NCBI GenBank assembly: GCA_039028615.1
Contig: JBCCHT010000055.1
Span: forward strand, 1-64,000
Source: Myxococcota bacterium
Lineage (GTDB): Bacteria > Myxococcota_A > Polyangia > Nannocystales > Nannocystaceae
Reading direction: 5' to 3'
DNA length: 64,000 nucleotides
The notes under the pieces were generated by a model. The model saw only the letters and a list, made by a program, of their open reading frames with translations. It was not told where the DNA came from and made no database searches. Below are positions 12,409-36,721 of the stretch, piece after piece (position 1 is the first letter of the stretch; each line of letters opens with the position of its first letter). The translations under genes were made by a program, and so were the position numbers.

Positions 12409-12948
12409 TCAGCCCGCCGGGGGGCGCTCGCGGCCACGCCATAGCCACGCCGCGCCCAGCCACCACGGCAGCTCCCAGACCAGGCCGGCCAGCACCGCCA
12501 GCGCGGCCGCCCCCAGGTCGTTCCAGCCCGCCGTGTTGTCCGGCCGCCCCAGCAGCCCCATGAGGTTGAAGGGGCTGTAGGCCTCCCTGGTCAGCGGCCA
12601 TAGCCACGCCACGCCGATGCCGTTGCTGGCGTTGGTGTCCATGGTGCTGTCGGTCAGCAGGTGCCCGAGGCCCCCCACGAACACGCCCAGCACCAGCGGC
12701 CACACCGTGCTCGCGCCCGCGCCCCGAGCCCGTGCCACCACCCCCGCCACCGCGGCCGCCAGCCCGCAGAAGAACACGTTGTGCGTGACCACCCGGTGCC
12801 ACTCGTTGAACTGCGGCGCCCAGATCACGGCGAAGTCGATGTCGGGCAGGACACCGCCGAGCACCATGCCCGCGACGGAGATCGGGACCCCGCGCGCCGC
12901 CGCCCGACCGATGACGTACGAGAACGCGGCGTGCCCCACCGGGGTCAT
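12409..12948 (-). CDS. Inner-membrane metal-dependent hydrolase (YdjM-like)
   Basis: GH..., LPDID, HRVVTH, HLLTD, WP motifs with TM helices; ATGA overlap with the upstream peptidase. Confidence 0.85.
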   Translation of the reverse strand: MTPVGHAAFSYVIGRAAARGVPISVAGMVLGGVLPDIDFAVIWAPQFNEWHRVVTHNVFFCGLAAAVAGVVARARGAGASTVWPLVLGVFVGGLGHLLTDSTMDTNASNGIGVAWLWPLTREAYSPFNLMGLLGRPDNTAGWNDLGAAALAVLAGLVWELPWWLGAAWLWRGRERPPAG

Positions 12949-15038
12949 GGCTCGGGGACCTCGAGCTGCTCGAGCACGAACGCGTACCACAGCGCCGTCT
13001 CGCGCAGCGCGTCGTAGCGCCCCGATGGGCCGGCGTGGCCCGACTCCATGTCGGTCCGTAGCAGCAGCACGTTGTCGTCGGTCTTGGTGGTCCGCAGCTT
13101 GGCGACCCACTTGGCCGGCTCCCAGTAGCCCACGCGCGGATCGTTGAGCCCGGCCAGCACCAGCATGGGCGGGTGGTCGACCGCCTTCACGTTGTCGTAG
13201 GGGGAGTAAGACCGCATGGCGTCGTAGTACTTGCGCTCCTGCGGGTTGCCCCACTCGTCGTACTCGATGACCGTCAGCGGAAGCGTGGGGTCGAGCATGG
13301 TGCTGAGCACGTCGACGAAGGGCACGTCGGCCACCACCGCCCCGAACAGGTCGGGCCGAAGGTTGACCACCGCGCCCATCAGCAGGCCGCCCGCGCTTCC
13401 GCCCCGGATCGCCAAGCGGGCCGGCTCGGTGTAGCCGCGATCGCATAGCGACTGGGCACACGCGACGAAGTCGGAGAACGTCGTGGGCTTGCGCTCGAGC
13501 TTGCCCGCCTCGTACCAGGGGCGGCCCCCCTCCCCGCCCCCGCGCACGTGGGCCATCGCGAAGATCATGCCGCGCTCGAGCAGCGAGACCCGGCTGGACG
13601 AAAACGACGGGTCATAGGAACTGCCGTAGGCGCCGTAGCCGATGAGCAGGGTGGGCTGCGGCCGGCTGCGATCGAGGTCGGCCCGGTGCACCAGCGAGAT
13701 GGGGACCATGGTGCCGTCGGGGGCTTCGGCCTCGATCCGCTCGCACACGAAGCGCGCCGCGTCGTAGCCCTTGACGACCGCCTGCTTGCGACGCACTCGG
13801 GTCCGCTCGACGAGGTCGTAGTCGAAGATCGACGACGGCGTGACCAGGGAGGTGTAGCCGAAGCGCAGGGTCTTGGTGTCGAACTCGAGGTTGGTGCTGG
13901 TCCAGACGTTGTAGACCGGCTCGGGCATCTCGATGTCGTGCCGCTGTCCCGTGGCCACCGTCTCGACCGAGAGCACGGGCAAGCCCCGTTCGCGCCGCGC
14001 GATGACCAAGTGTTCGGCGAAGCACTCGACCGAGTCGAGCTTGATGGCGGGATCGTGGGCGATCTTCTCGACCCAGTGCTCCCGCTGCGGCGCGTCGAGC
14101 CGCAGCTCCATCACCCGGAAGTTGATCGCCTCCTCGTTGGTCAGCACGAACAATCGATCGCCGTGGTGGCTGACGCCGTACTCCACCCCGTACTTGCGCG
14201 GGGCAACGGTCCACCACTGCCCCTCGGGCTCGTCGGCGGCCAGCATGCGCACCTCGCTGGTGACCTGACTGTCGATGTCCATCACCAAGAAGCGTCGGCT
14301 GCGAGTCCGGGACAGGCCGACGAAGAACGCCTCGTCGGGCTCCTCGTGGATCAGCACGTCGTCGGAGGCGGGCGTGCCCATGCGATGGCGCATGACCTGG
14401 TAGGGCCGCGAGGCCTCGTCGAGCACGACATAGAACAGGAACTGGCCGTCTTCCGACCACACCACGTCGGTGCTCAGGTTGGTGCGCAGCTCGGTGAGCG
14501 GCTCCTCGAGCATGGCGCCCGTGGCCAGCTCGCGCACGTGCAGGGTGTGGTGCTCGTCGCCCGTGTCGTCGACGAGATAGGCGACCCGCTCGTGCGCGGG
14601 GTCGAGGCTCCACCCGCCGATGTCGTAGTAGGCGTGCCCCTCGGCCAGCGCGTTTTCGTCGAGCACGATCTGCTCGGCGTCGTCGGCCTGCTCGCCCGGG
14701 TCTCCGGCGTCGGGCGGTCGGCGACAGATCTGGACGTACGACTTGCCCTCGATCGTGCGCGAGTAATACAGGAAGGGGCCGTAGCGAAACGGCACGCCGT
14801 GGTCGGTCTGCTTGATCCGCCCCAGGATCTCGTCGTAGAGGCGCTGCTGCTTGGCCTCGGTGGGAGCCATGACCGCGGCCGTGTAGTCGTTCTCGGCCCG
14901 CAGATAGGCCTCGACGGCCGGGTCTTCACGCTCGCGAAGCCACGCGTAGGGGTCGGGGCGCGCTTGGCCGTGCTCGCGATGCACGTGGTCACGGAGTTCA
15001 GCGACGGGAGGGGTGAGCGAAGCGGGAGACTTGGTCAC
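12945..15038 (-). CDS. ptrB: Oligopeptidase B (S9A)
   Basis: DPYAWL, HVRGGGE, GGSAGG nucleophile, EYDEWGNP, NDPRV, GH; GTG start 15038. Confidence 0.92.
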   Translation of the reverse strand: MTKSPASLTPPVAELRDHVHREHGQARPDPYAWLREREDPAVEAYLRAENDYTAAVMAPTEAKQQRLYDEILGRIKQTDHGVPFRYGPFLYYSRTIEGKSYVQICRRPPDAGDPGEQADDAEQIVLDENALAEGHAYYDIGGWSLDPAHERVAYLVDDTGDEHHTLHVRELATGAMLEEPLTELRTNLSTDVVWSEDGQFLFYVVLDEASRPYQVMRHRMGTPASDDVLIHEEPDEAFFVGLSRTRSRRFLVMDIDSQVTSEVRMLAADEPEGQWWTVAPRKYGVEYGVSHHGDRLFVLTNEEAINFRVMELRLDAPQREHWVEKIAHDPAIKLDSVECFAEHLVIARRERGLPVLSVETVATGQRHDIEMPEPVYNVWTSTNLEFDTKTLRFGYTSLVTPSSIFDYDLVERTRVRRKQAVVKGYDAARFVCERIEAEAPDGTMVPISLVHRADLDRSRPQPTLLIGYGAYGSSYDPSFSSSRVSLLERGMIFAMAHVRGGGEGGRPWYEAGKLERKPTTFSDFVACAQSLCDRGYTEPARLAIRGGSAGGLLMGAVVNLRPDLFGAVVADVPFVDVLSTMLDPTLPLTVIEYDEWGNPQERKYYDAMRSYSPYDNVKAVDHPPMLVLAGLNDPRVGYWEPAKWVAKLRTTKTDDNVLLLRTDMESGHAGPSGRYDALRETALWYAFVLEQLEVPEP

Positions 15039-15209
15039 GGGGAAGCGGGGGTGGCACGGCGGCCAGCCGAGGCAGGGTACGACAGCCATCGCGATCACGC
15101 AGGCGCGCGTCACCGAAGCGCGAATCGACGGAACATTGAGTTGCGGGCTCTAGCGACCGCCCTTGCCACCTGCCGCGAACCCAACGACTGGTTTGCTACG
15201 CTTGGCTCG

Positions 15210-24161: not shown

Positions 24162-24881
24162 TCAGATCATGATGCCCAACTCGTAACGTCGGTACAGCGC
24201 TGATTTACGCCGATCGGTTCGCATCGACGTTCGGTTGATGTCCGTGATGGAAAAGGGCGCGGCCTCCCGAGCCAGACCGACCTTGCGTTCCATCGTCCAG
24301 TCGGCCATCGGCTCGAGCTCGTCACGCGTCAGACCGAACAGCTGCAAAAAGAGCACGGTGCCGTGCGGTGTGTCGATCTTCCCTAGCTGTGGGTCCGGCA
24401 CGCAGACCACGCCCACGAGGGCGCTGGCCCGGGTCGTGCCCGTCTCGGGGTCGGCGTCGGTCGGCCCGAGCGGCCCTCCCAAGTCGATCACGTGACCGCT
24501 GTCGAAGGGGCCATGCCCGGACAGCACGTAGTGCCCCAGCATCTGCAGCAGCTGCACCGCCCACATCGGCGGACGTTCCTGCTCGGGCGTCCGCGGGATC
24601 CGAAAGGTGAGCTCGTACCCGAAGCCGCTCTGCTCTGGATCGGGCGAGCTCTTTTCGAATAACTCCGTCAGCCCGTAGCCCACCAAGTGCCAGTGATCGG
24701 GCCCCCTACCCTCGTGGGCCACCACGGCGGGCAAGGGGCTACGACCCTCGAGGTCGTAGGGCTTTTGGCTGGTGAGCTGGTGCGGCGTCTGGCCGGGATG
24801 GATCGTCGCCAAGGCGCGATCGATCGCCGCCCAGCCGGGCGCGTGCACGGGATACCGCGGATCGTCCTTCGCGTCGCTCAT
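24162..24881 (-). CDS. Suppressor-of-fused (SUFU)-like protein
   Basis: PGWAAID, HWHLVGYGLTEL, SGFGYELTFR, DPQLGKIDTPHG.V.FLQ; ATGA overlap with serC stop. Confidence 0.88.
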   Translation of the reverse strand: MSDAKDDPRYPVHAPGWAAIDRALATIHPGQTPHQLTSQKPYDLEGRSPLPAVVAHEGRGPDHWHLVGYGLTELFEKSSPDPEQSGFGYELTFRIPRTPEQERPPMWAVQLLQMLGHYVLSGHGPFDSGHVIDLGGPLGPTDADPETGTTRASALVGVVCVPDPQLGKIDTPHGTVLFLQLFGLTRDELEPMADWTMERKVGLAREAAPFSITDINRTSMRTDRRKSALYRRYELGIMI

Positions 24882-25993
24882 CCCTTGCGCTCGAACTCCC
24901 GCATGAACTCGCACAGCACGTCGACGCCCGCCTCGGGGAAGGCGTTGTAGATCGACGCGCGGCAGCCCCCGACGGAGCGGTGACCCTTGAGCCCGGAAAG
25001 CCCGGCCGCGGCCGCGTCGGCGATGAAGGTCTTGGTGCGCGCATCGGCATCGTCGCCCGCGAGCGTCCAGGTGACGTTCATGGTGGAGCGGCTGCCCGCC
25101 TTGGCGTGCGGCTGGTACAGGCTGCTCTCATCGAGCACCGAGTAGAGCTTGTCGGCCTTGCGGCGGTTGACCGCGCCCACGGCCTCGACCCCACCCTTAC
25201 CCTTGACCCAGTCGAGCACGTTGCGGAGCACCATGATCCCGAAGGTGTTGGGCGTGTTGAACAGGCTGTTCTTCTCCGAGTGCGTCGTGTAGCGCAGCAT
25301 CGTGGGCACGTAGGCCGCGGCCTCTTTTTCGAGCAGCTCGCGGCGCATGAACACCAGCGTCACCCCGGAGGGGCCGAGGTTCTTCTGCGCGCCCGCGTAG
25401 CCGAGCGAGATGTTCTCGAGGGCCATCTTCCGCGACCCGATGTTGCTCGACAGGTCGACGACGAGCGGCGTGTCCCCGGCGTCGGGGATCTCGGCCAGCT
25501 CGGTGCCGTAGATGGTGTTGTTACTCGTCAGGTGCAGGTAGCTCGCACCCGAGTAGCGATCGGCCGCGGGCAGCTGCGGGACGTGGTCGTAGCCGCTGTC
25601 GGCCGAGCTGGCGATGACCTCGGTCGCGCCCAGGCCCTTGCTCTCCTTGATCGCCTTCTTCGACCACACGCCGGTGTCGACGTAGGCGGCCGGCTTGTCG
25701 GCGACGCGAAGGTTGTAGGGCACCATCGCGAACTGGAGGCTCGCGCCGCCCTGGAGCAGCAGCACCTCGTAGTCCTTGGGCACGCCGAGCACGTCGTGCA
25801 CCAGCGCCTTCGCCTCCTCGTGGATGGCGTCATAGGTCTTGCTGCGATGGGAGATCTCGAGGATCGAGAGCCGGGACTCGAGCGAGTCGTCGCCGGGCAC
25901 GTCGAGCGAGCGCACGGCGGCCGCCGTACGCTCGAAGACCTCGGGCGGGAGGATCGCGGGACCGGCCGAGAAGTTGAAGGGGCGCTCCGTCAT
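24878..25993 (-). CDS. serC: Phosphoserine aminotransferase
   Basis: NFSAGP, EISHRS, LQGGAS, NNTIYG, AGAQKNLGP (PLP Lys), GHRSVGG.RASIYNA; start 25993 or 26002. Confidence 0.96.
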   Translation of the reverse strand: MTERPFNFSAGPAILPPEVFERTAAAVRSLDVPGDDSLESRLSILEISHRSKTYDAIHEEAKALVHDVLGVPKDYEVLLLQGGASLQFAMVPYNLRVADKPAAYVDTGVWSKKAIKESKGLGATEVIASSADSGYDHVPQLPAADRYSGASYLHLTSNNTIYGTELAEIPDAGDTPLVVDLSSNIGSRKMALENISLGYAGAQKNLGPSGVTLVFMRRELLEKEAAAYVPTMLRYTTHSEKNSLFNTPNTFGIMVLRNVLDWVKGKGGVEAVGAVNRRKADKLYSVLDESSLYQPHAKAGSRSTMNVTWTLAGDDADARTKTFIADAAAAGLSGLKGHRSVGGCRASIYNAFPEAGVDVLCEFMREFERKG

Positions 25994-26764: not shown

Positions 26765-28165
26765 TCAGCCTTCGATCTCGGCGACGATCTGCGCTCGGAT
26801 GGCCAAGACCTCCGAGCGCAGGGTCGCCACCTCTGCGCGCCACTCGGTCACGTCCCCGAGGTCGGGGTCGGCCATGATCGCGGGCTCGATCTGCCCCGCG
26901 ATGGTGTCGATGCGCTCGTCGATGGCCTCGAGCGTCCACAGGTTATCCAGCAGGTCGTGCGACGCCGCCGTGTAGTCGCTCCACATCGAGGTCACCAGGC
27001 CTTCGATGATCGGGTCGCAGGTCGCCGCCCGGCGCCCGACGGCGCCGTCACCGATGGGGCGCGGCTCGCAATCGGCCGACAGATCGGACCAGTGCGGCTG
27101 GTCGAAGAACTCCTTGAACGGGTTGGGGTCATCGAAGCTGTTGTCGAGGTCCCAGGGGATCAGCCACACCCGCTGGGTCTGAGTCTCCTCGTACCAGTAG
27201 TAGTTGTGGTTGCCGCAGCCCCAGTCCCCGCACCAAAACCCCAGCGCGCCGTCCCAGTTCTCCACCATGCGATCGACGGCCAAGAGCCGAGCGAGCGCGG
27301 CTCGGTCCATCCATCGATCGATCACCTCGTCCATGGCCTCGGGCGTGGACGACTGGAGCTCCTGCGCGAACAAGACCATGTCGAGTGCGTCGGGAGACTC
27401 GTCGCGGTTGGTCTTGAGCGCGTCGAGGTAGGGCCCTTCGCCGAAGTGCATGGGCCACACTTCTTTGTACAGGTTGCCCTCTCCGTCCTCGGGGAAATTC
27501 ACCCGAGTGAAGCGCCCGTCCACCTGCTCGACCAGCGCGTATAGCCCCATCAGCTCCCCGTTGATGACGAGCTGGGCATGGACCGCCCGAGACGCGGGCA
27601 CACCGAAGTCGCGGAACAAGGCGTAGCCGAGCCGCTCGGTGATCTTCGACGGGTCGGCCTTCATCGAGTGGAAGTTCAGGCGCTTGAGCCCATCGAGAAG
27701 CTGGTCCTCGACATACTCGTCGAAGCGAATCTTCATCGACAGCTTGTCGCAGACCAACATGCCGCCCTCGAAGCAGTTCGCCAGCGAGCCCACGTTGCCC
27801 TTGTAGCGAATGGCCACGTTCTCCAGCCGCTGCCCATCGACCTCGACCGCGGCGGGGACATACTCCTCCGCCTGCGGGTCCGCGTTGATGCGCTCCAGGT
27901 CCTCGGGCGCAATCTCGACGGAGTAGGTGCGGAGCTGGGTGGGATCGAAGACCCAGTCGCCGTGGTCGGCCCCGGCCGGGTCTCCGCCCGTCGAAGAATC
28001 CGCCCCCGTGGTCGGCTCGCCCGCCGTGCCCAACTCCGAGCCCGTGCCCGTCGCGGTGGCGTCCTCCGCCTCCGACGACAGGCCCGCATCACACGACCAC
28101 GATGCGAGCGTGGCCCCCAACACGGGGACGAGACGAGCCCTCTTCAACATCCCCATCCAATCCAT
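26765..28165 (-). CDS. CotH-family kinase, probable lipoprotein
   Basis: Signal ending ASWSC; IRYKGN, KLSMKI.FD, GLYALVEQVD, GNLYK, NWDG, HNYYWY, IPWDLD. Confidence 0.88.
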   Translation of the reverse strand: MDWMGMLKRARLVPVLGATLASWSCDAGLSSEAEDATATGTGSELGTAGEPTTGADSSTGGDPAGADHGDWVFDPTQLRTYSVEIAPEDLERINADPQAEEYVPAAVEVDGQRLENVAIRYKGNVGSLANCFEGGMLVCDKLSMKIRFDEYVEDQLLDGLKRLNFHSMKADPSKITERLGYALFRDFGVPASRAVHAQLVINGELMGLYALVEQVDGRFTRVNFPEDGEGNLYKEVWPMHFGEGPYLDALKTNRDESPDALDMVLFAQELQSSTPEAMDEVIDRWMDRAALARLLAVDRMVENWDGALGFWCGDWGCGNHNYYWYEETQTQRVWLIPWDLDNSFDDPNPFKEFFDQPHWSDLSADCEPRPIGDGAVGRRAATCDPIIEGLVTSMWSDYTAASHDLLDNLWTLEAIDERIDTIAGQIEPAIMADPDLGDVTEWRAEVATLRSEVLAIRAQIVAEIEG

Positions 28166-28376
28166 CGATGCCAGTGTGCCAGGCCGCACCGCACCGTGTC
28201 ACCGGGAACGAACCATGCCGCTGGCGGTGGATTCGCGAGGACGAACGAAGGGCTGAAGTGGCAAGTTCCGCATGCTCATCCAGCCCGGCGAGTGCAACCC
28301 GGCCCGATCGGAACACCAGGCTCCGATGGCCGAGTCGAAGCGGATCGACTCGACCATCGGCCGTGCTCGATGAGCA

Positions 28377-30515
28377 TCACCCACCGCGGCAGTCGACGTT
28401 GCGTTCGGCTTGATCGAGCAACACTGCGGCCAGGGTGTCGGAGATGGGCAGGCCCGGGTCGCGGTCGAGCCAGAAGAACTCGCCGACCGGGTTGACCTCG
28501 AGGAACACGTGGCGCCCATCGGGCGTGACGATGAAGTCGGCCGCGCCGTAGTTGAGGCCGAGCTTGCGCTGCAGGGCGAGCAAACCCGTCTCGACGTCCT
28601 TGGGCAGCGAATAGGGCTGCCAGTCGTTGATGAGACCCAGGCCGTCGCGACGCCAGTCGACTTCGGTCTGCGCGCGACGAGCGGAGTCGATGGATGCCGA
28701 CATGACCTTCGTGCCGGCCACCGTGACCCGTAGCTCGACCACCTTGGTCAGCTCCTCCTGGAAGGTCATGGGACACAGGGAGAGCCCATCGAGTTCTTGG
28801 AGGTCCTGCTCCTTCACGCGCGTGGTGTAGACCACGTTCTCCCGGCCTTCGCGGTAGATGGCGAAGGAGTGCTGCATCTTGGTGACGACCCGGCCTTCGA
28901 GGCGTCGCCAGAAGTCGCGGGCATCCTCGGCTCGGTTGGTCACCAGCGTGCGCGGCACCTCGAGCCCGACCTCGGACGCGAGGCGAAGCTGGAGTTCCTT
29001 GTGGTGCGTGCGGGTGACCGAGGCGAGCCGATCGAGCTGGAAGCACTCCAAGTTCGCGATGGTGCCGAACAGGGTGCGACGGGTCTCGCCCACCGCCGCC
29101 TCTCGGGTATCACCCATGGAGCGCGGCAGGCCGCCCCCCGCGGCGAAGCGCCGATACCAGACCGCCTGCAGCGACTCGAGGGCATAGCCCTTGCCGTCGA
29201 CCACCACCAAGCCGGTCCCGCCGCGACTGCGCACGGTCGACAGGCCCACCTCCTGCGGATAGCGGTCGGTGTTCATGCGGATCGGCACGCCGCCCCGCTG
29301 CTCGATGGCTGCGCTGACCGTCTCGATGCACTCGTTGTCGCCGCTGTGGGTGATGATGAGCACCGTCGGTTTCGACGAGTCGGCGGTGACCACCGCGGGG
29401 GCTTGCCGAGGCGTCTCGGCCGGTTCGGTCGTGACTCCGGGCAACGTCGCCCGAGCCTCGGCCGCCGGTCGGGGCACGACCTCGACCGGCTCGAGCACCC
29501 GCGCTTCGCTCGGCGCCCGCTCGGGCTGCCCCGTGGCGTCGACCAGCCACTGCCCGATCGCATCGGCGATGGGTAGCTCGAGGTCTCGCTCGAGCCACCC
29601 CCACTCGCCCGCGGGGTTGAGCTCGAGGAACACGTGCTCTCCCTCGGGCGTCACGATGAAGTCCATCACCCCGAAGGACAGACCCAGGCGATCGAGCAGC
29701 TGCCGCGCCTGCGCTCGCAAGGCATCGGGCACGGTGGCGTGCTCCCACGGCGGCCCCTCGTCGGCCCGAAGCCGCCGCCAGTCGACCTCACCGCGCGTGG
29801 TTCCCCGGGTATCGATCGCGCCGGCAAAGCACTGGTCTCCCACCAGCACGACCCGGAGCTCTCGCCCCTTGGGTATCTCGGGCTGGAAGATCTGCGGAAC
29901 CCAGCGCAGGTCTTCGGCCTGCTGCAGGTCGTCGCTCGAGACCCGGCTGGTGTACATGAAGTCGCCGCGACCGCCCTTCATGTCGTAGCTGATGGGCGTC
30001 ATCAGCTTGGTGACCACCGCCGATTCCTGCTGCGCCGCGAAGCCCCGCACCTCCCCCGGATGGTTGCTGAACAGGGTGTCGGGCACGGTCATGCCCACCC
30101 GCGCCGCCTCGATCAGCTGCCGGGGTTTGGACTCGGCCGCGAGCTGCAGATCGATGCGGTCGAGCCACCCCGCGCCATCGAGCAGGGGCAACAGCTGGGT
30201 CATGGCCACGCGGGCGTGATGGCTGGCGATGCCCCGCCACCGCGGCGCCAAGCCATCGAGGCCGCTTGCGGTCCACAGGCGGCGCATCCACACCGCCCCG
30301 ACCCGCGACAGATCGACCGCGCGACCATCCGCATGGAGGACCCCTTGCACCGTGCCCTGCTGGGCACGCACCGACAGCGACAGCTCGGCGGGAAAACGAT
30401 CGGTGTCGACACGGAGTGCTTCCACTCCGCGCCGAGCCACCGCCGCCTGCACGCGATCGATGGTGAAGAAGTCCCCGCGGTGGGTCAGGAGAAGGACGAG
30501 CGTGTCGTCGGCCAA
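28377..30515 (-). CDS. Fused di-domain microviridin-type ATP-grasp ligase (MdnB/MvdC-like amide ligase plus MdnC/MvdD-like ester ligase)
   Basis: Domain 1 VLLLTHRGDFFTIDRV...FLELNPAGEWGWLERDL; ~57-aa P/A/E/T linker; domain 2 VLIITHSGDNECI...CPMTFQE...FLEVNPVGEFFWL; TTG start 7 nt after the precursor stop. Confidence 0.93.
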   Translation of the reverse strand: MADDTLVLLLTHRGDFFTIDRVQAAVARRGVEALRVDTDRFPAELSLSVRAQQGTVQGVLHADGRAVDLSRVGAVWMRRLWTASGLDGLAPRWRGIASHHARVAMTQLLPLLDGAGWLDRIDLQLAAESKPRQLIEAARVGMTVPDTLFSNHPGEVRGFAAQQESAVVTKLMTPISYDMKGGRGDFMYTSRVSSDDLQQAEDLRWVPQIFQPEIPKGRELRVVLVGDQCFAGAIDTRGTTRGEVDWRRLRADEGPPWEHATVPDALRAQARQLLDRLGLSFGVMDFIVTPEGEHVFLELNPAGEWGWLERDLELPIADAIGQWLVDATGQPERAPSEARVLEPVEVVPRPAAEARATLPGVTTEPAETPRQAPAVVTADSSKPTVLIITHSGDNECIETVSAAIEQRGGVPIRMNTDRYPQEVGLSTVRSRGGTGLVVVDGKGYALESLQAVWYRRFAAGGGLPRSMGDTREAAVGETRRTLFGTIANLECFQLDRLASVTRTHHKELQLRLASEVGLEVPRTLVTNRAEDARDFWRRLEGRVVTKMQHSFAIYREGRENVVYTTRVKEQDLQELDGLSLCPMTFQEELTKVVELRVTVAGTKVMSASIDSARRAQTEVDWRRDGLGLINDWQPYSLPKDVETGLLALQRKLGLNYGAADFIVTPDGRHVFLEVNPVGEFFWLDRDPGLPISDTLAAVLLDQAERNVDCRGG

Positions 30516-30522
30516 GGCTCGA

Positions 30523-31683
30523 CTACCCCGCCCCGCCGTCTTCCCAATCGGACGGGTACTTGAGCGTCACCGGGCCGCCACCGCCGTCTTCTTCGTCCGA
30601 CGGGTACTTCTCGGTGACCGGGCCTTCCTCGTGATCGGACGGATACTTGCGCGTCACCGGACCGTCCTCTTCGTCCGATGGGTACTTCCGCGTCACCGGA
30701 CCGCCGCCGCCGTCCTCTTCGTCCGACGGGTACTTGCGCGTCACCGGGCCGCCGCCGTCCTCCTCGTCCGATGGGTACTTGCGCGTCACCGGGCCGCCAC
30801 TGCCATCTTCCTCGTCCGACGGATACTTGCGCGTCACCGGGCCGCCGCCGTCCTCGTGATCGGACGGGTACTTGCGCGTCACCGGACCACCGCCGTCCTC
30901 TTCGTCGGAGGGGTACTTGAGCGTCACCGGGCCGCCGCCGCCGTCCTCGTGATCGGACGGGTACTTCTTGGTCACCGGTCCGCCGTCTTCTTCGTCGGAC
31001 GGGTACTTCTGGGTGACCGGTCCGCCGCCGCCGTCCTCGTGATCGGACGGGTACTTCTTGGTGACCGGTCCGCCACCGCCGTCCTCGGCGTCGGAGGGGT
31101 ACTTCAAGGTCACCGGGCCATCCTCGTGATCGGAGGGGTGCTTGCGGGTGACGGGACCCTCCTCTTCGTCGGACGGGTACTTGAGCGTCTGCAGATCGGA
31201 ATCGCCGCCCTGCTGATCCTCGAGGAAGCGGGCGAAGAAGGGTTGGTCGCGGACGCGCGTGGGCTCGACCTTCTCCATCAGGCGCGCCGCTCGACGACCC
31301 GCCAGACGAGCGCGACGCATCAGCGACTCGGCGTGGTCGCGCATCTCCTTGACGCGATCGTCATGGGCGTCCTGCCAGGTCTTCGCGGCTTCGCGTTGAC
31401 CGGCCTCGACCAAGGTCCGGGCCACGTCGCGCATGCGCTCGAGCACGGTCGCTTGGCTCTCGGGTTCGTCGGACGCGGCCGCGAGTGCTTCGTGCGCTCG
31501 GTTGACGGCCTCGGCTGCCGCCTCGTTCCCGGCCGCACCTCCCGCATCACCAGAGGCCGCACGCGTGCGAGCTTTGGCGGCCTTCTTGGCGACTTTCTTC
31601 GCTACTTTTTTCGCGACCTTTTTGGTCGCTTTCTTTGCAGCTTTCTTAGCAGTGGTTTTCTTGCGCGGTCGTCGTGTTGCCAT
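30523..31683 (-). CDS. Microviridin/marinostatin-family graspetide precursor with 15 tandem cores
   Basis: PFFARFL leader motif (31222-31242), then 15 TxK(Y/H)PSDxE(D/E) cores separated by G1-4P-type spacers; adjacent to ATP-grasp ligase; alternative ATG at 31278. Confidence 0.95.
   Translation of the reverse strand: MATRRPRKKTTAKKAAKKATKKVAKKVAKKVAKKAAKARTRAASGDAGGAAGNEAAAEAVNRAHEALAAASDEPESQATVLERMRDVARTLVEAGQREAAKTWQDAHDDRVKEMRDHAESLMRRARLAGRRAARLMEKVEPTRVRDQPFFARFLEDQQGGDSDLQTLKYPSDEEEGPVTRKHPSDHEDGPVTLKYPSDAEDGGGGPVTKKYPSDHEDGGGGPVTQKYPSDEEDGGPVTKKYPSDHEDGGGGPVTLKYPSDEEDGGGPVTRKYPSDHEDGGGPVTRKYPSDEEDGSGGPVTRKYPSDEEDGGGPVTRKYPSDEEDGGGGPVTRKYPSDEEDGPVTRKYPSDHEEGPVTEKYPSDEEDGGGGPVTLKYPSDWEDGGAG
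30538..31191 (-). repeat. In-frame tandem repeat, 15 units of 39-48 nt, encoding the core peptides
   Basis: Recurring + strand motif tcggacgggtactt(nnn)cgtcaccgg with a variable number of Gly codons. Confidence 0.95.
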
Positions 31684-31867
31684 GTTGGGGGCTCGCTTCG
31701 TTGCAGGTGCAAAATGCTAGCACCGCGCTACGGGATACCTGTGGCCCGTTGGGGGACCTTGGATCGATCGTTCCTGGGTCCAGCACGAAATGCGATCGGC
31801 GTCACAGCTGCAACGCGGGTGATCCGTGGCATGGGCCATCACGTGTGGCCCTGCTAGCCTGAGCGCC

Positions 31868-32338
31868 GTGAAGACCCCAGTCCGCACGATCATGCTCGGC
31901 CTGATGCTCGGAAGCACGATGGTAGCCACCGGCTGCTACGGCAACGTCGACGCCTTCATCGAGAAGAAAGCCAAGCTGGACTGCAAGCGCGTCGAAGAGT
32001 GCGACCGCTCCACGTTCGAAAACGCCTACAACGGGGACCAAGACCGCTGCCGCAGCGACACGGAGACGCTCCTCCACGGGCTCAACGACATCTTCGACGC
32101 CGCCGGTTGCGAGTACGACCCCGACGAGGGCCGCCTGTGCATCAAGACCTCCCGGCAGCTCAAGAAGACCTGCGGCAGCGATGCCGACCAAGACATCGTC
32201 GACGACTGCGAAGAAGTCCTGCGCTGCGGCGCGGGCCTGGGGCTCGATCCTGAGGACGAGTGGGACGAGCTGTCCCCCGAGCAGCTCGTTTCCGAACCCG
32301 AAGACGAGCCCGTCTCCGAGGACGAGCCCGAGGCCTAG
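31868..32338 (+). CDS. Cys-containing hypothetical lipoprotein
   Basis: VATGC lipobox, several Cys, acidic tail; divergent from the precursor. Confidence 0.7.
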   Translation: MKTPVRTIMLGLMLGSTMVATGCYGNVDAFIEKKAKLDCKRVEECDRSTFENAYNGDQDRCRSDTETLLHGLNDIFDAAGCEYDPDEGRLCIKTSRQLKKTCGSDADQDIVDDCEEVLRCGAGLGLDPEDEWDELSPEQLVSEPEDEPVSEDEPEA

Positions 32339-34240: not shown

Positions 34241-35407
34241 CTACAGGGGCTGATCGTTGGTCACGCAGTGAATGCCGCCACCGTCCACCCACAGGTCGCG
34301 AACGTCGACCATGTAGATGGTGCGCTCGGGGAACCACTGCTGGAGCTGGGCTTGCGCCGCCGCATCGGCCTGCGCGTTCCCGAAGGCCCCCGAGATCACG
34401 TAGCCGTTGCCCACCAGCCAGTTCATGTAGTCGGTGTCCGCGGGGAAGGGCATGCGGATGATGGTGAGGTCGGGTCGCTGCGCGGCGATCTGCCCCGCGA
34501 CGTTCTCGAAGAGGTCGGCAAAGACCGGGTCGAAGTCGGGGTTGCTGATCTGCCCCACCACCACCTCGTCCTCGGAGATGAAGCGCGCGAGCCCGTCGAC
34601 GTGACCCGTGGTGCCGTCCTCGGGGTGGAAGCCCTCGAGGTAGATCACCGAGCTGACGCCGAACGCCGACTCGAAGATGGCGGTGGCCTGGGCCTCGCTG
34701 AGGTCGGGGTTGCGATCGGTGACCACCGACCAGTTCACCATCACCGTGTCCAGGCCGTTGAACTCGAGGTCGCCGCGCTCGTGCACCATGTCGACGGTCT
34801 CGACCGGCAGCCCGAGGTAGTCCGCGATCACGGGCGGCACTCGGTTGTCGTCCTCGTAGGGGATGTCGGCCCCGAAGTTGCCGCCCCAGCCGTCGAAGCC
34901 CCAGTCCTGCACCACCATCTGGTCGTCGACCATCACGTAGCGGGGCCCGTTGTCCCGCATCCACGCGTTGTCGGTGGGGATGATGTGCCAGGTGATGCCG
35001 TCGCTCGACACCCCCGCGTCCGCCAGCATGTTCGTGGCGCGGTCTCGCATCGAGCCGTTCGCCGCGACGAGGTGGACCGGCTGGTGCTGGCGGGCGATGG
35101 CGATGACCTCGACGAAGGTCTCCTCGAAGTGTCGCTCCCACTCGCCGGGCCACTGCATCCACAGCGCCGCCTGGGGTTCCCACTCCGCGGGCACGCGTCG
35201 GGTCGCGGTGGGGTCCAGCCCCGAGTCTCCGCCCACGCCGCTGGTCGAGTCGTCGGCGCCCGCCGATGACCCCTCACCGCCCGAGCCTTCGCCCGAGCCC
35301 TCGCCCGGGGCGGCCGTGGCTCCATCCAGCGAAGAGCCGGTCGACGCCGGAGCCGCACACGCGAGCACGGGGAGCAGCAGAGCCGACGAAATCCAAGGTT
35401 GCTTCAT
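34241..35407 (-). CDS. Agmatine/peptidylarginine deiminase-family lipoprotein
   Basis: PVLAC lipobox, S/G linker, PAEWEPQ, WMRDNGP, GHVDG, GGGIHCVT. Confidence 0.88.
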   Translation of the reverse strand: MKQPWISSALLLPVLACAAPASTGSSLDGATAAPGEGSGEGSGGEGSSAGADDSTSGVGGDSGLDPTATRRVPAEWEPQAALWMQWPGEWERHFEETFVEVIAIARQHQPVHLVAANGSMRDRATNMLADAGVSSDGITWHIIPTDNAWMRDNGPRYVMVDDQMVVQDWGFDGWGGNFGADIPYEDDNRVPPVIADYLGLPVETVDMVHERGDLEFNGLDTVMVNWSVVTDRNPDLSEAQATAIFESAFGVSSVIYLEGFHPEDGTTGHVDGLARFISEDEVVVGQISNPDFDPVFADLFENVAGQIAAQRPDLTIIRMPFPADTDYMNWLVGNGYVISGAFGNAQADAAAQAQLQQWFPERTIYMVDVRDLWVDGGGIHCVTNDQPL

Positions 35408-35515
35408 GGATTTGGGTATGCGCAGGCAACCTGAAATCCGACTGAAATTGCGCAGAAGCGACGTTGGCGGCCGATCCGAGCCTGCCGCCCCTAGCGCACG
35501 AGTACACTTCCGCGG

Positions 35516-36721
35516 ATGACCTACACCCACTACGGCTGGCCCTCGTCTCCGTACTCCGCCAAGTCCCGGGCCGCGCTGCGAGCCTCGGGATTGCCGTGGA
35601 CGGAAGCGCAGCCCCATGCCCTGAGCCTCGCATGGTTGCAGGCACACGTGGGGCGCAAGGTCATCCCGGTCATGCGCACGCCGAGCGGGCAGTTCGTTCA
35701 GGACAGCTCGCGCATCGTCGATACGCTCACCGAGGCCAGCGGTCGGCCCCTCGTGCCGGAGCCGGGCCTCGCCCGCGTGCTCGCCTCTTGGGTCGAGGTC
35801 TTTGCCGACGAGTGGATGATCTACCCCGCGATGTATTTTCGCTGGCGCTACCACGGCGGCGACTTCGACTACATGGTTCGCGACTTCGGCCGCTGTGCCC
35901 TGCCCGGCCTCCCCGGCGTGGTCCAGCGCCGCGGCGGTCTCGAGGTCGCCAAGGCCATGAGCCGCTACCTGCCCATCATGGGCATCGACAAGCACACCGG
36001 GCCCGCCATCGAGACCCTGACCCTGGAGCTGCTCGATCGACTCGAGGCCCGTCTCGACGAGAGTGCCTACGTCTTCGGCGAGACGCCCTGCGTGGCCGAC
36101 TTTGCCCTCTACGGCCCCTTGGGCGCGCATGTCGGCCGAGACCCGTGGTCGGCCGGGGTCATCGATGCGCGACCGTCCGTGCGCCGATGGCTCGAGGCCC
36201 TCGACGAAGGACGCGACGAGGCGGCGCCGCTTTCGGTGGACGAGGCGCTGCCGCCCGCGCTGGCGTCTTTGCTGCGACTGATGTTCGAGATTGCCGCGCC
36301 CGCGTGGGTGCAGGCGCACGGGTTCGCCACCGAGCAATGGGAGGGCCCCGGCTCGAGCATGCATCGACGCGTCGGGACCTTCGACGCGCAGCTGCCCGCC
36401 GCCGATGGCATCACGCACTCGATGAAGCTCACCGCGGTCACCGTATGGAAGATGCATCGGCCCCTGCGCGCGCGACTGGAGCTTCCCGAGGCACAGGCTC
36501 GCGCGGCGGGTGAAGTCCTCGAGTCGTTGGGGGCGAGCGGGCTGCTCGATCTGCCGTTGCTCGACGGGTTCGATCTCGACTCGATCGCGTGGCGCAAGGA
36601 TCAGACCTCGTTCGGCCCGCTGGGCAAGCTGCTCGACAGCCTCACGCCTGCGTTGAAGCGCGCGCCCGCGTGGCGTCCGTTACATCCGCTACGCCGCGGA
36701 CCGGTGCGTGCGCTCGGCTGA
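35516..36721 (+). CDS. Glutathione S-transferase-like protein
   Basis: SPYSAKSR, IPVM, QDSS.I, FADEW, ADFALYG. Confidence 0.8.
   Translation: MTYTHYGWPSSPYSAKSRAALRASGLPWTEAQPHALSLAWLQAHVGRKVIPVMRTPSGQFVQDSSRIVDTLTEASGRPLVPEPGLARVLASWVEVFADEWMIYPAMYFRWRYHGGDFDYMVRDFGRCALPGLPGVVQRRGGLEVAKAMSRYLPIMGIDKHTGPAIETLTLELLDRLEARLDESAYVFGETPCVADFALYGPLGAHVGRDPWSAGVIDARPSVRRWLEALDEGRDEAAPLSVDEALPPALASLLRLMFEIAAPAWVQAHGFATEQWEGPGSSMHRRVGTFDAQLPAADGITHSMKLTAVTVWKMHRPLRARLELPEAQARAAGEVLESLGASGLLDLPLLDGFDLDSIAWRKDQTSFGPLGKLLDSLTPALKRAPAWRPLHPLRRGPVRALG

What the first reader, a model, noticed from the sequence alone, without database searches (positions are those of the whole stretch)
28377..31683. Minimal two-gene graspetide system: 15-core microviridin-type precursor plus one fused ligase
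Seen: PFFARFL leader motif, 15 cores, and a di-domain ATP-grasp gene 7 nt downstream; the flanks show no ABC transporter, C39 peptidase or GNAT acetyltransferase. Known: microviridin clusters typically have precursors with one or a few cores, two separate ligases, and often a GNAT and an ABC transporter. In the core TxKYPSDxEE/D, T1-D7 and S6-E9 form esters and K3-(E/D)10 forms an amide. All six ring residues are kept in all 15 cores, allowing up to 45 crosslinks per precursor. Inference: a streamlined, highly multivalent protease-inhibitor system in a myxobacterium, distinct from plesiocin-type TTxxxxEE cores. I cannot confirm novelty without a search.
Basis: partly seen in the sequence, partly recalled or inferred. 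Interest (0 to 1): 0.92.

Follow-up and report, generated by a model that had tools for sequence, protein, structure and literature searches.

The report
Protein-sized microviridin with fused ring-closing enzyme
A myxobacterium encodes a 386-residue protein carrying fifteen copies of a known protease-blocking peptide unit behind an unrecognised folded leader domain, next to one enzyme fused from the two that normally close its rings; in some distant relatives that leader is a separate gene, hinting that the chemistry can be aimed at whole proteins.

Summary
Window 30523-31683(-) is a 386-aa precursor with PFFARFL and 15 cores that keep all six ring residues. Seven nt downstream lies a 712-aa MvdC-like + MvdD-like fusion with intact catalytic motifs. 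No exporter, C39 peptidase or GNAT turned up in the window.

It is rare but not unique: 12 other full-length fusions and 9 other 15-core precursors were found. Reviews read here give at most five cores, and two surveys capped precursors at 100-150 aa.

The ligases of such giant precursors form one well-supported clade. In four genomes of another class the helical domain + PFFARFL is a stand-alone, core-less gene. Those same four carry ligases of this clade with no precursor beside them, and leader-less core-bearing proteins elsewhere. This suggests a natural leader acting in trans.

Best reading: a polyvalent serine-protease inhibitor, possibly never cut into single peptides. No activity was tested. 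New variant of a known kind.

The parts
30523..31683 (-). Precursor gene, 386 aa (41 kDa), microviridin type
   Evidence: NF033738; PF12559
31549..31683 (-). aa 1-45: Lys/Ala-rich basic tail (net +20), no hydrophobic signal-peptide stretch; also present in the G049 orthologue
31252..31530 (-). aa 52-144: helical 'leader domain' (two helices plus one long helix), no Pfam/NCBIfam family; homologous to the domain before PFFARFL in other giant precursors and in core-less leader proteins
   Evidence: (pLDDT 89); 53 of 105 aa identical to G049 with third-position-biased change
31222..31242 (-). PFFARFL ligase-activating leader motif (aa 148-154)
   Evidence: role from PMC8939145 and PMC13039773
30538..31188 (-). 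Array of 15 cores TxK[Y/H]PSDx[E][D/E] with (G)nPV linkers; P1 residue R7, L4, K2, Q1, E1; 10 of 14 linkers hold GG
28377..30515 (-). Fused di-domain ATP-grasp ligase, 712 aa, TTG start 7 nt after the precursor stop
29538..30503 (-). N-terminal MvdC/MdnB-like domain (predicted lactam, K3-D/E10); K130, K170, D285 and N300 invariant in 13 fusions, E298 present here
29367..29537 (-). Pro/Ala-rich variable linker of about 57 aa
28407..29366 (-). C-terminal MvdD/MdnC-like domain (predicted two esters); K506, K546, D660, E673 and N675 invariant in 13 fusions

Best explanation
A two-gene microviridin (group 1 graspetide) unit of a distinct 'protein-sized precursor' branch. Step 1 (inferred from the 7-nt gap): both genes are co-expressed. 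Step 2: PFFARFL switches on the ligase domains (shown for cyanobacterial MdnB/C, inferred here). The helical domain before it is part of a folded leader module (inferred from its conservation and from its occurrence with PFFARFL as a stand-alone gene). Step 3 (by homology): the C-terminal domain makes two esters per core and the N-terminal domain then makes the lactam, working distributively along 15 cores. The fusion keeps both activities on one long substrate (inferred). Step 4 (inferred): the product is a beads-on-a-string serine-protease inhibitor, mostly trypsin-type (9 Arg/Lys P1) and elastase/subtilisin-type (4 Leu P1). It has no dedicated release or export step and works intact or only loosely trimmed.
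For: Intact cores under purifying selection. Catalytic motifs kept in both domains; the AMdnC K165/D280 equivalents are present. Same architecture in G049 with 9 cores. All 13 fusions plus 4 split pairs with 10-15-core precursors form one branch, 100/98 (core counts). No exporter, C39 or GNAT among the flank ORFs scanned at this locus or at 5 of 5 such related loci. No signal peptide, and 4 of 14 linkers lack GG. Relatives carry folded domains after or between leader and cores (P0035, P0036, P0041, P0063, P0064). Ten of 10 leader-less carriers hold 3-8 cores between two other domains. P1 rule from PMC7823629 passages.
Against: No expression or activity data. Ten of 14 linkers contain GG and a GG follows the leader, as in class II precursors. 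The genome encodes 3 C39 peptidase genes, one a full ABC exporter in a plesiocin-type cluster, and 6 M1 peptidase genes; NosP works from 0.8 Mb away. The window's helical domain alone scores only 20.8 bits against a profile built without it and G049 (reversed control 3.4), and with default filters that profile did not retrieve it from the genome's ORFs. A Glu298-to-Asp change sits in the lactam domain of 3 of 13 fusions, including G049.
Confidence: 0.55

Rival explanations
1. An extreme class II microviridin cassette. After ring closure, a peptidase encoded elsewhere (C39-ABC or M1/NosP type) cuts the array into up to 11 different small tricyclic peptides that are exported; the N-terminal domain is only a disposable leader.
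For: GG in 10 of 14 linkers and after the leader. Class II precursors are defined by tandem cores with or without GG. Trans peptidases exist in the genome and in Nostoc.
Against: None of 6 giant-precursor loci has a transporter or C39 beside it, whereas class II clusters normally do. The C39-ABC on C18 has its own short plesiocin-type substrate. Cores are embedded between folded domains in relatives.
Confidence: 0.3
2. The rings are made but the protein is not mainly a protease inhibitor. It is an intracellular scaffold or nucleic-acid-associated protein whose acidic tail (net -30) is neutralised by cyclisation and whose basic tail binds DNA, RNA or membrane.
For: Histone-like tail of net +20 and no signal peptide. 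The core-less leader gene follows an S1-domain gene in 3 of 4 genomes. P1 includes Gln and Glu.
Against: 13 of 15 P1 residues (R, K, L) are ones that give trypsin, elastase or subtilisin inhibition. The basic tail is short or absent in many relatives. All characterised graspetides were protease inhibitors as of PMC8939145.
Confidence: 0.1
3. A silent or decaying locus, or an assembly artefact (lost stop codon, expanded repeat).
For: No expression data. The fusion is patchy in the family (2 of 73 genomes).
Against: 13 full-length fusions at 48-100% identity. 14 distinct DNA versions among 15 cores with synonymous divergence. Orthologous locus in G049.
Confidence: 0.05

Closest known systems
Class II microviridins, e.g. 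AMdnA/AMdnC of Anabaena PCC 7120 (PMC5934393, passages; PMC7823629, passages)
   Same: PFFARFL leader, tandem TxKYPSDx(D/E)(D/E) cores, MdnC- and MdnB-type ligases, GG in most linkers
   Different: 15 cores against 'up to five'; 147-aa N-terminus with a folded domain; one fused ligase against two; no GNAT, MdnE or C39 in the cluster
Myxomiditides, myx cluster of a Myxococcota MAG (PMC12848669: parts 1-2 of 6 of the text, passages, SI part 1)
   Same: Myxococcota host, same tricyclic core, cooperating ATP-grasp ligases (MyxD1-MyxD2 bind each other)
   Different: Four separate ligases, short precursors, extra KxxE lactams; here one fusion, no KxxE extension, 15 cores
Plesiocin-type (group 2) graspetides, e.g. 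Rcp of Rheinheimera (PMC11626197, passages)
   Same: Repeated cores on one precursor, protease-inhibitor logic
   Different: TTxxxxEE bicyclic ester cores, single ligase, C39-ABC in the cluster; a cluster of that kind lies elsewhere in this genome
Engineered leader-in-trans or leader-fused MdnB/MdnC (PMC5934393, PMC7823629, PMC13039773, passages)
   Same: Shows that a free PFFARFL leader can switch the ligases on for leader-less cores
   Different: Those are laboratory constructs; relatives found here appear to encode a free leader naturally

Membership tests
Microviridin (group 1 graspetide) | Core TxKxPSDx(D/E)(D/E) | tested here: met
   15 of 15 cores; motif as in PMC12848669
Microviridin (group 1 graspetide) | PFFARFL leader motif | tested here: met
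   aa 148-154; NF033738 and PF12559 hits
Microviridin (group 1 graspetide) | MvdD-type and MvdC-type ATP-grasp ligases with intact catalytic motifs | tested here: met
   Both present, as two domains of one protein
Microviridin (group 1 graspetide) | Two esters and one lactam actually formed per core | not testable with these tools
   Needs co-expression and MS
Microviridin (group 1 graspetide) | Serine-protease inhibition | not testable with these tools
   Predicted from P1 residues only
Class II (multicore) microviridin precursor | One leader with tandem cores, up to five | tested here: not met
   Tandem cores yes, but 15 against 'up to five'
Class II (multicore) microviridin precursor | C39 peptidase transporter normally in the cluster | tested here: not met
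   None among 42 window ORFs scanned; three elsewhere in the genome
Class 3 microviridin (myxomiditide) | (KxxE)n before the core and a third ligase type (MyxF) | tested here: not met
   Linkers are (G)nPV; only two ATP-grasp domains at the locus
Plesiocin (group 2) | TTxxxxEE cores | tested here: not met
   Cores are TxKxPSD
Known folded domain family (for the N-terminal domain) | Sequence or fold match of aa 52-144 to a described family | tested here: inconclusive
   No Pfam/NCBIfam hit on that stretch; fold searches give only generic helical-hairpin/TPR-like rows, best Z 9.2, rmsd 1.6, 61 aligned

The most novel reading that the evidence does not exclude
This locus belongs to an undescribed branch of microviridin chemistry that modifies whole proteins, not short peptides. 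A folded leader module (helical domain + PFFARFL) switches on a dedicated ligase clade. Here it is fused to 15 cores and served by a fused two-in-one ligase. In genomes G754, G760, G761 and G763 it is a free, core-less protein that activates unlinked ligases in trans, so that they cyclise leader-less cores embedded in larger proteins. That would be a naturally split leader/core RiPP system.
Probability: 0.4. Interest if true: 0.87.

Novelty: new variant of a known kind. Interest (0 to 1): 0.68.

Why it matters
Multicore microviridins are described with up to five cores, and two large surveys excluded precursors over 100 or 150 aa, so this branch would have been invisible to them. A natural ester+amide ligase fusion working on 15 cores makes processivity and ring order on long substrates directly testable with two genes in E. 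coli. It could be a one-enzyme tool for tricyclic inhibitor libraries. If the stand-alone leader proteins activate in trans, nature has separated leader from core, something so far done only in the laboratory for this family in the papers read here. That would turn a peptide pathway into a protein-modification system.

Tried and rejected
Binding of the helical domain (aa 52-144, motif left out) to the fused ligase: complex prediction gave no answer (score 0.00); no evidence either way.

Single-sequence fold of the ligase: useless, pLDDT 35, so the domain arrangement is unknown.

Searches on the helical domain: ESM Atlas gave no usable hit; Foldseek gave none at E<=0.001; VIA-align gave generic helical rows only. 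Atlas search with the carriers' C-terminal domain gave leads under 0.9 only.

Expression: no RNA holder was listed. No sigma-70-like promoter in 28000-32000.

Core-less leader profile: not found in 401 genomes of the window's class (that search did not ring on the window's own gene either), nor in viral contigs. The domain+motif profile was not found in 351 genomes of the class of G724.

Idea that the carriers' N-terminus descends from the extra N-terminal part of cis precursors: not supported (2.9% probability).

Single origin of the fusion: neither shown nor rejected (AU p 0.069; 2 changes on the best tree).

Fusions in 80 metagenome loci: 0. Among 401 phylum genomes only the window's gene was a fusion (2 candidates scored per genome). 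Plasmids: 3 Nostoc records, none examined for fusion beyond the listing.

Earlier scan notes: nothing.

Papers not held: Li 2016, Zhao 2021, Ramesh 2021, Choi and Link 2023. Ahmed 2017 and Lee 2020 were seen only through citing papers.
Full report
OBSERVATION. The two ORFs are as described. The precursor (30523-31683, minus strand, 386 aa) has PFFARFL at aa 148 and 15 cores; the ligase starts 7 nt after its stop. All six ring positions are kept; core 2 has His for Tyr. The strict core motif occurs nowhere else in the 12.3-Mb genome. The repeats are old and selected: there are 14 distinct DNA versions of 15. Ring positions show 225 synonymous against 26 non-synonymous pairwise differences; the two variable positions show 21 against 144. 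The 712-aa ligase has an MvdC-like N-half and an MvdD-like C-half, with ATP and metal motifs intact in both. No exporter, C39 or GNAT family was hit among 42 other window ORFs. The genome has three C39 genes and six M1 peptidase genes elsewhere.

HOW RARE. The fusion: 13 full-length proteins of 700-730 aa (this one included, others 48-88% identical) among 17 hits from 8000 scored candidates. In the family, 27 of 73 genomes match the ligase, but only this genome and same-genus G049 have it fused. Of 17 regions fetched, the 14 split loci with a precursor have 1-2 cores and G049 has 9. In the best 80 of 133 metagenome loci none was fused, and 68 precursors had 1-4 cores.

A scan of 185,579 species genomes for three close Tyr-type cores gave 25 loci (the pattern is narrow and listed neither this genome nor G049). 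Most are cyanobacterial with 3-5 cores, but four have 10, 10, 13 and 15 cores with split ligases (L134, L136, L143, L149). Protein searches gave eight more precursors with 15 strict cores (P0018-P0023, P0031, P0061); these are related to each other and not independent. So 15 cores is matched elsewhere, but is three times the 'up to five' of the two papers that state a limit (PMC7823629 passages; PMC13039773 part 1 of 5 and passages).

The precursor has 147 residues before PFFARFL: a basic tail (net +20) and a helical domain (pLDDT 89) with no family hit. It is real coding sequence: 53 of 105 residues match G049, with change biased to third positions. A profile of domain+motif found 31 representatives among 1.84 billion. 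Eleven carry cores. Thirteen or so are 113-172 aa long, end at or just after a PFFAR(F/Y)L-type motif and have no core. With the motif removed, the two sets still align (hhalign 95%, E 3e-8; reversed control 0.1%). The window's own domain scores a modest 20.8 bits against the relatives' profile (reversed 3.4) and was not retrieved from the genome's ORFs with default filters. The link therefore rests on position and invariant residues as well as score.

A SEPARATE LIGASE BRANCH. The tree held 43 ligase pairs, cut down from 102 by dereplication. All 13 fusions and the four split pairs with giant precursors form one branch (100/98). The three other triple-core loci included fall outside. The four split pairs were chosen by core number, which is a bias. 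One origin of the fusion is neither shown nor rejected. Two further giant precursors with the helical domain (P0063, P0064; 14 and 13 strict cores) share contig lengths with fusions P0012 and P0010; this linkage is inferred, not read from DNA. No exporter, C39 or GNAT was found among the 32 flank and precursor ORFs scanned at L031, L134, L136, L143 and L149; their neighbours are unrelated housekeeping genes. L134, L143 and L149 have long N-termini of other kinds, so the helical domain is not universal in the branch.

SPLIT FORM IN RELATIVES. Among 38 genomes of the class of G726, 7 match the domain. In four (G754, G760, G761, G763) the gene is core-less, with a stop shortly after the motif and no ligase in the stretch fetched; three lie behind an S1-domain gene. 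Each of these four also has both ligase types elsewhere. In G754 and G760 about 15 kb around the pair holds no core or leader; in G761 and G763 the contigs are short, so a neighbouring precursor is not excluded. Each also has, on a third contig, a protein with 2-5 cores and no PFFARFL. The N-terminal part of that carrier matched exactly these four of 38 genomes.

These orphan ligases were found through the leader domain, not through cores, and fall inside the same branch (18 rows, SH-aLRT 100). The four form a sub-branch (98), while the conventional cluster of G760 falls outside (quick tree, 34 rows, 15 dropped for time). Against over-reading: these are related draft genomes without completeness figures. 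Three other genomes of the class have a lone MvdD-type ligase with no core within 1.5 kb. Nothing biochemical was tested. That a free leader can activate these ligases is known from laboratory work (PMC5934393 passages; PMC7823629).

MECHANISM. Ring chemistry follows from homology and from the NMR of myxomiditide, which also shows that Asp serves at position 10 (PMC12848669). Processing is probably distributive and may be incomplete. The residue between T and K sets the target: here R7, K2, L4, Q1, E1, that is trypsin-type and elastase/subtilisin-type proteases. Whether the chain is cut is open. For an intact polymer: no signal peptide, no transporter or peptidase at 6 of 6 loci, four linkers without GG, and cores embedded in larger proteins in relatives. 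The same genome also fuses 20 plesiocin-type cores to a tyrosinase-like protein beside another ATP-grasp gene (the tyrosinase label is mine, by eye). For cutting: GG in 10 of 14 linkers, and trans peptidases in the genome and in Nostoc. I put these at 0.55 and 0.30.

NOVELTY. It is a member of the microviridin family by core, leader and ligases, but not a class II cluster as defined. Nine full-text searches and the passages read showed no natural MvdC-MvdD fusion, no precursor of this size and no natural free leader. The 2026 survey used ORFs under 100 aa (SI part 1 of 7; its table of 667 accessions was not checked for fusions). The 2022 survey used 150 aa or less (PMC8939145 passages and section 5; supplement term search). 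Uncharacterised microviridin clusters are already noted in other myxobacterial genera (PMC12766979 passages). PMC11626197 and PMC10885120 were seen as passages and PMC13003496 as abstract. Ahmed 2017, Lee 2020, Ramesh 2021, Li 2016, Zhao 2021, Choi and Link 2023 and their supplements were not seen and could list such loci.

VERDICT. Real, intact and unusual; a new variant of a known kind. It stays high because of the folded leader domain, the separate ligase branch and the apparent natural trans-leader form.

Noticed in passing
G000:C20:108733-111916 (own genome, outside the window): A 693-aa protein with a tyrosinase-like N-terminus (label by eye) fused to 20 TTxxxxEE plesiocin-type cores, a small gene upstream and an ATP-grasp gene directly downstream. 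One paper holds both words 'graspetide' and 'tyrosinase' and looks unrelated by its listing. Worth its own look.
   Followed up: partly
G000:C18:214229-218700: Conventional plesiocin-type cluster: short precursor with four TTLAxGEE cores, ATP-grasp, HlyD-like gene (label by eye) and C39-ABC exporter.
   Followed up: partly
L179, L180, L181, L182 (G761, G760, G754, G763): Core-less genes made of the helical domain plus PFFAR(F/Y)L at the C-terminus, behind an S1-domain gene in three genomes.
   Followed up: yes
L204-L207; P0067, P0078-P0084, P0087, P0088: Leader-less proteins with 2-8 microviridin cores between an N-terminal region and a C-terminal ~100-aa domain of no family; that domain lies before the leader in P0066, P0068, P0069 and P0074.
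   Followed up: partly
L149:4656-6119 (Mariniblastus MAG): 15-core precursor with a deviant leader motif and split ligases in a planctomycete, inside the same ligase branch.
   Followed up: partly
L132:4659-6050 (Vampirovibrionaceae MAG): Ten TxKxPSD repeats with QE/DG endings, no PFFARFL and no ligase within 5 kb.
   Followed up: no
L237, L239, L240 (G756, G757, G755): Lone MvdD-type ligases with no core or leader within 1.5 kb; substrate unknown.
   Followed up: no
L198 and L177 (G728); L136 (G726); L200 (G754): In G728 the long precursor and its ligase pair lie on different contigs. By eye, the ligase pairs of G728 and G754 keep neighbours (oxoprolinase-like; folD/gcvH-like) that flank the intact cluster in G726, as if the precursor had moved away.
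   Followed up: partly
L036-L047 (family genomes): A separate single-core subfamily with two Cys before the core (YHCLDxxCTKKYPSD), possibly a disulfide or extra ring.
   Followed up: no
L162, L163, L165: Microviridin loci with three or four ATP-grasp genes, like the myx cluster.
   Followed up: no
P0003, P0005, P0008: The metal-binding Glu of the lactam domain is Asp in this sub-branch of fusions; products may lack the amide ring.
   Followed up: no
window 12948-15113: Prolyl oligopeptidase (S9) gene 13 kb from the cluster; every linker after core 1 ends in Pro-Val, but no link was tested.
   Followed up: no
window 24162-24914; 26765-28189; 34241-36457: SUFU-domain protein, CotH kinase and peptidyl-arginine deiminase genes near the cluster; not among the flank genes of the G049 locus.
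   Followed up: partly
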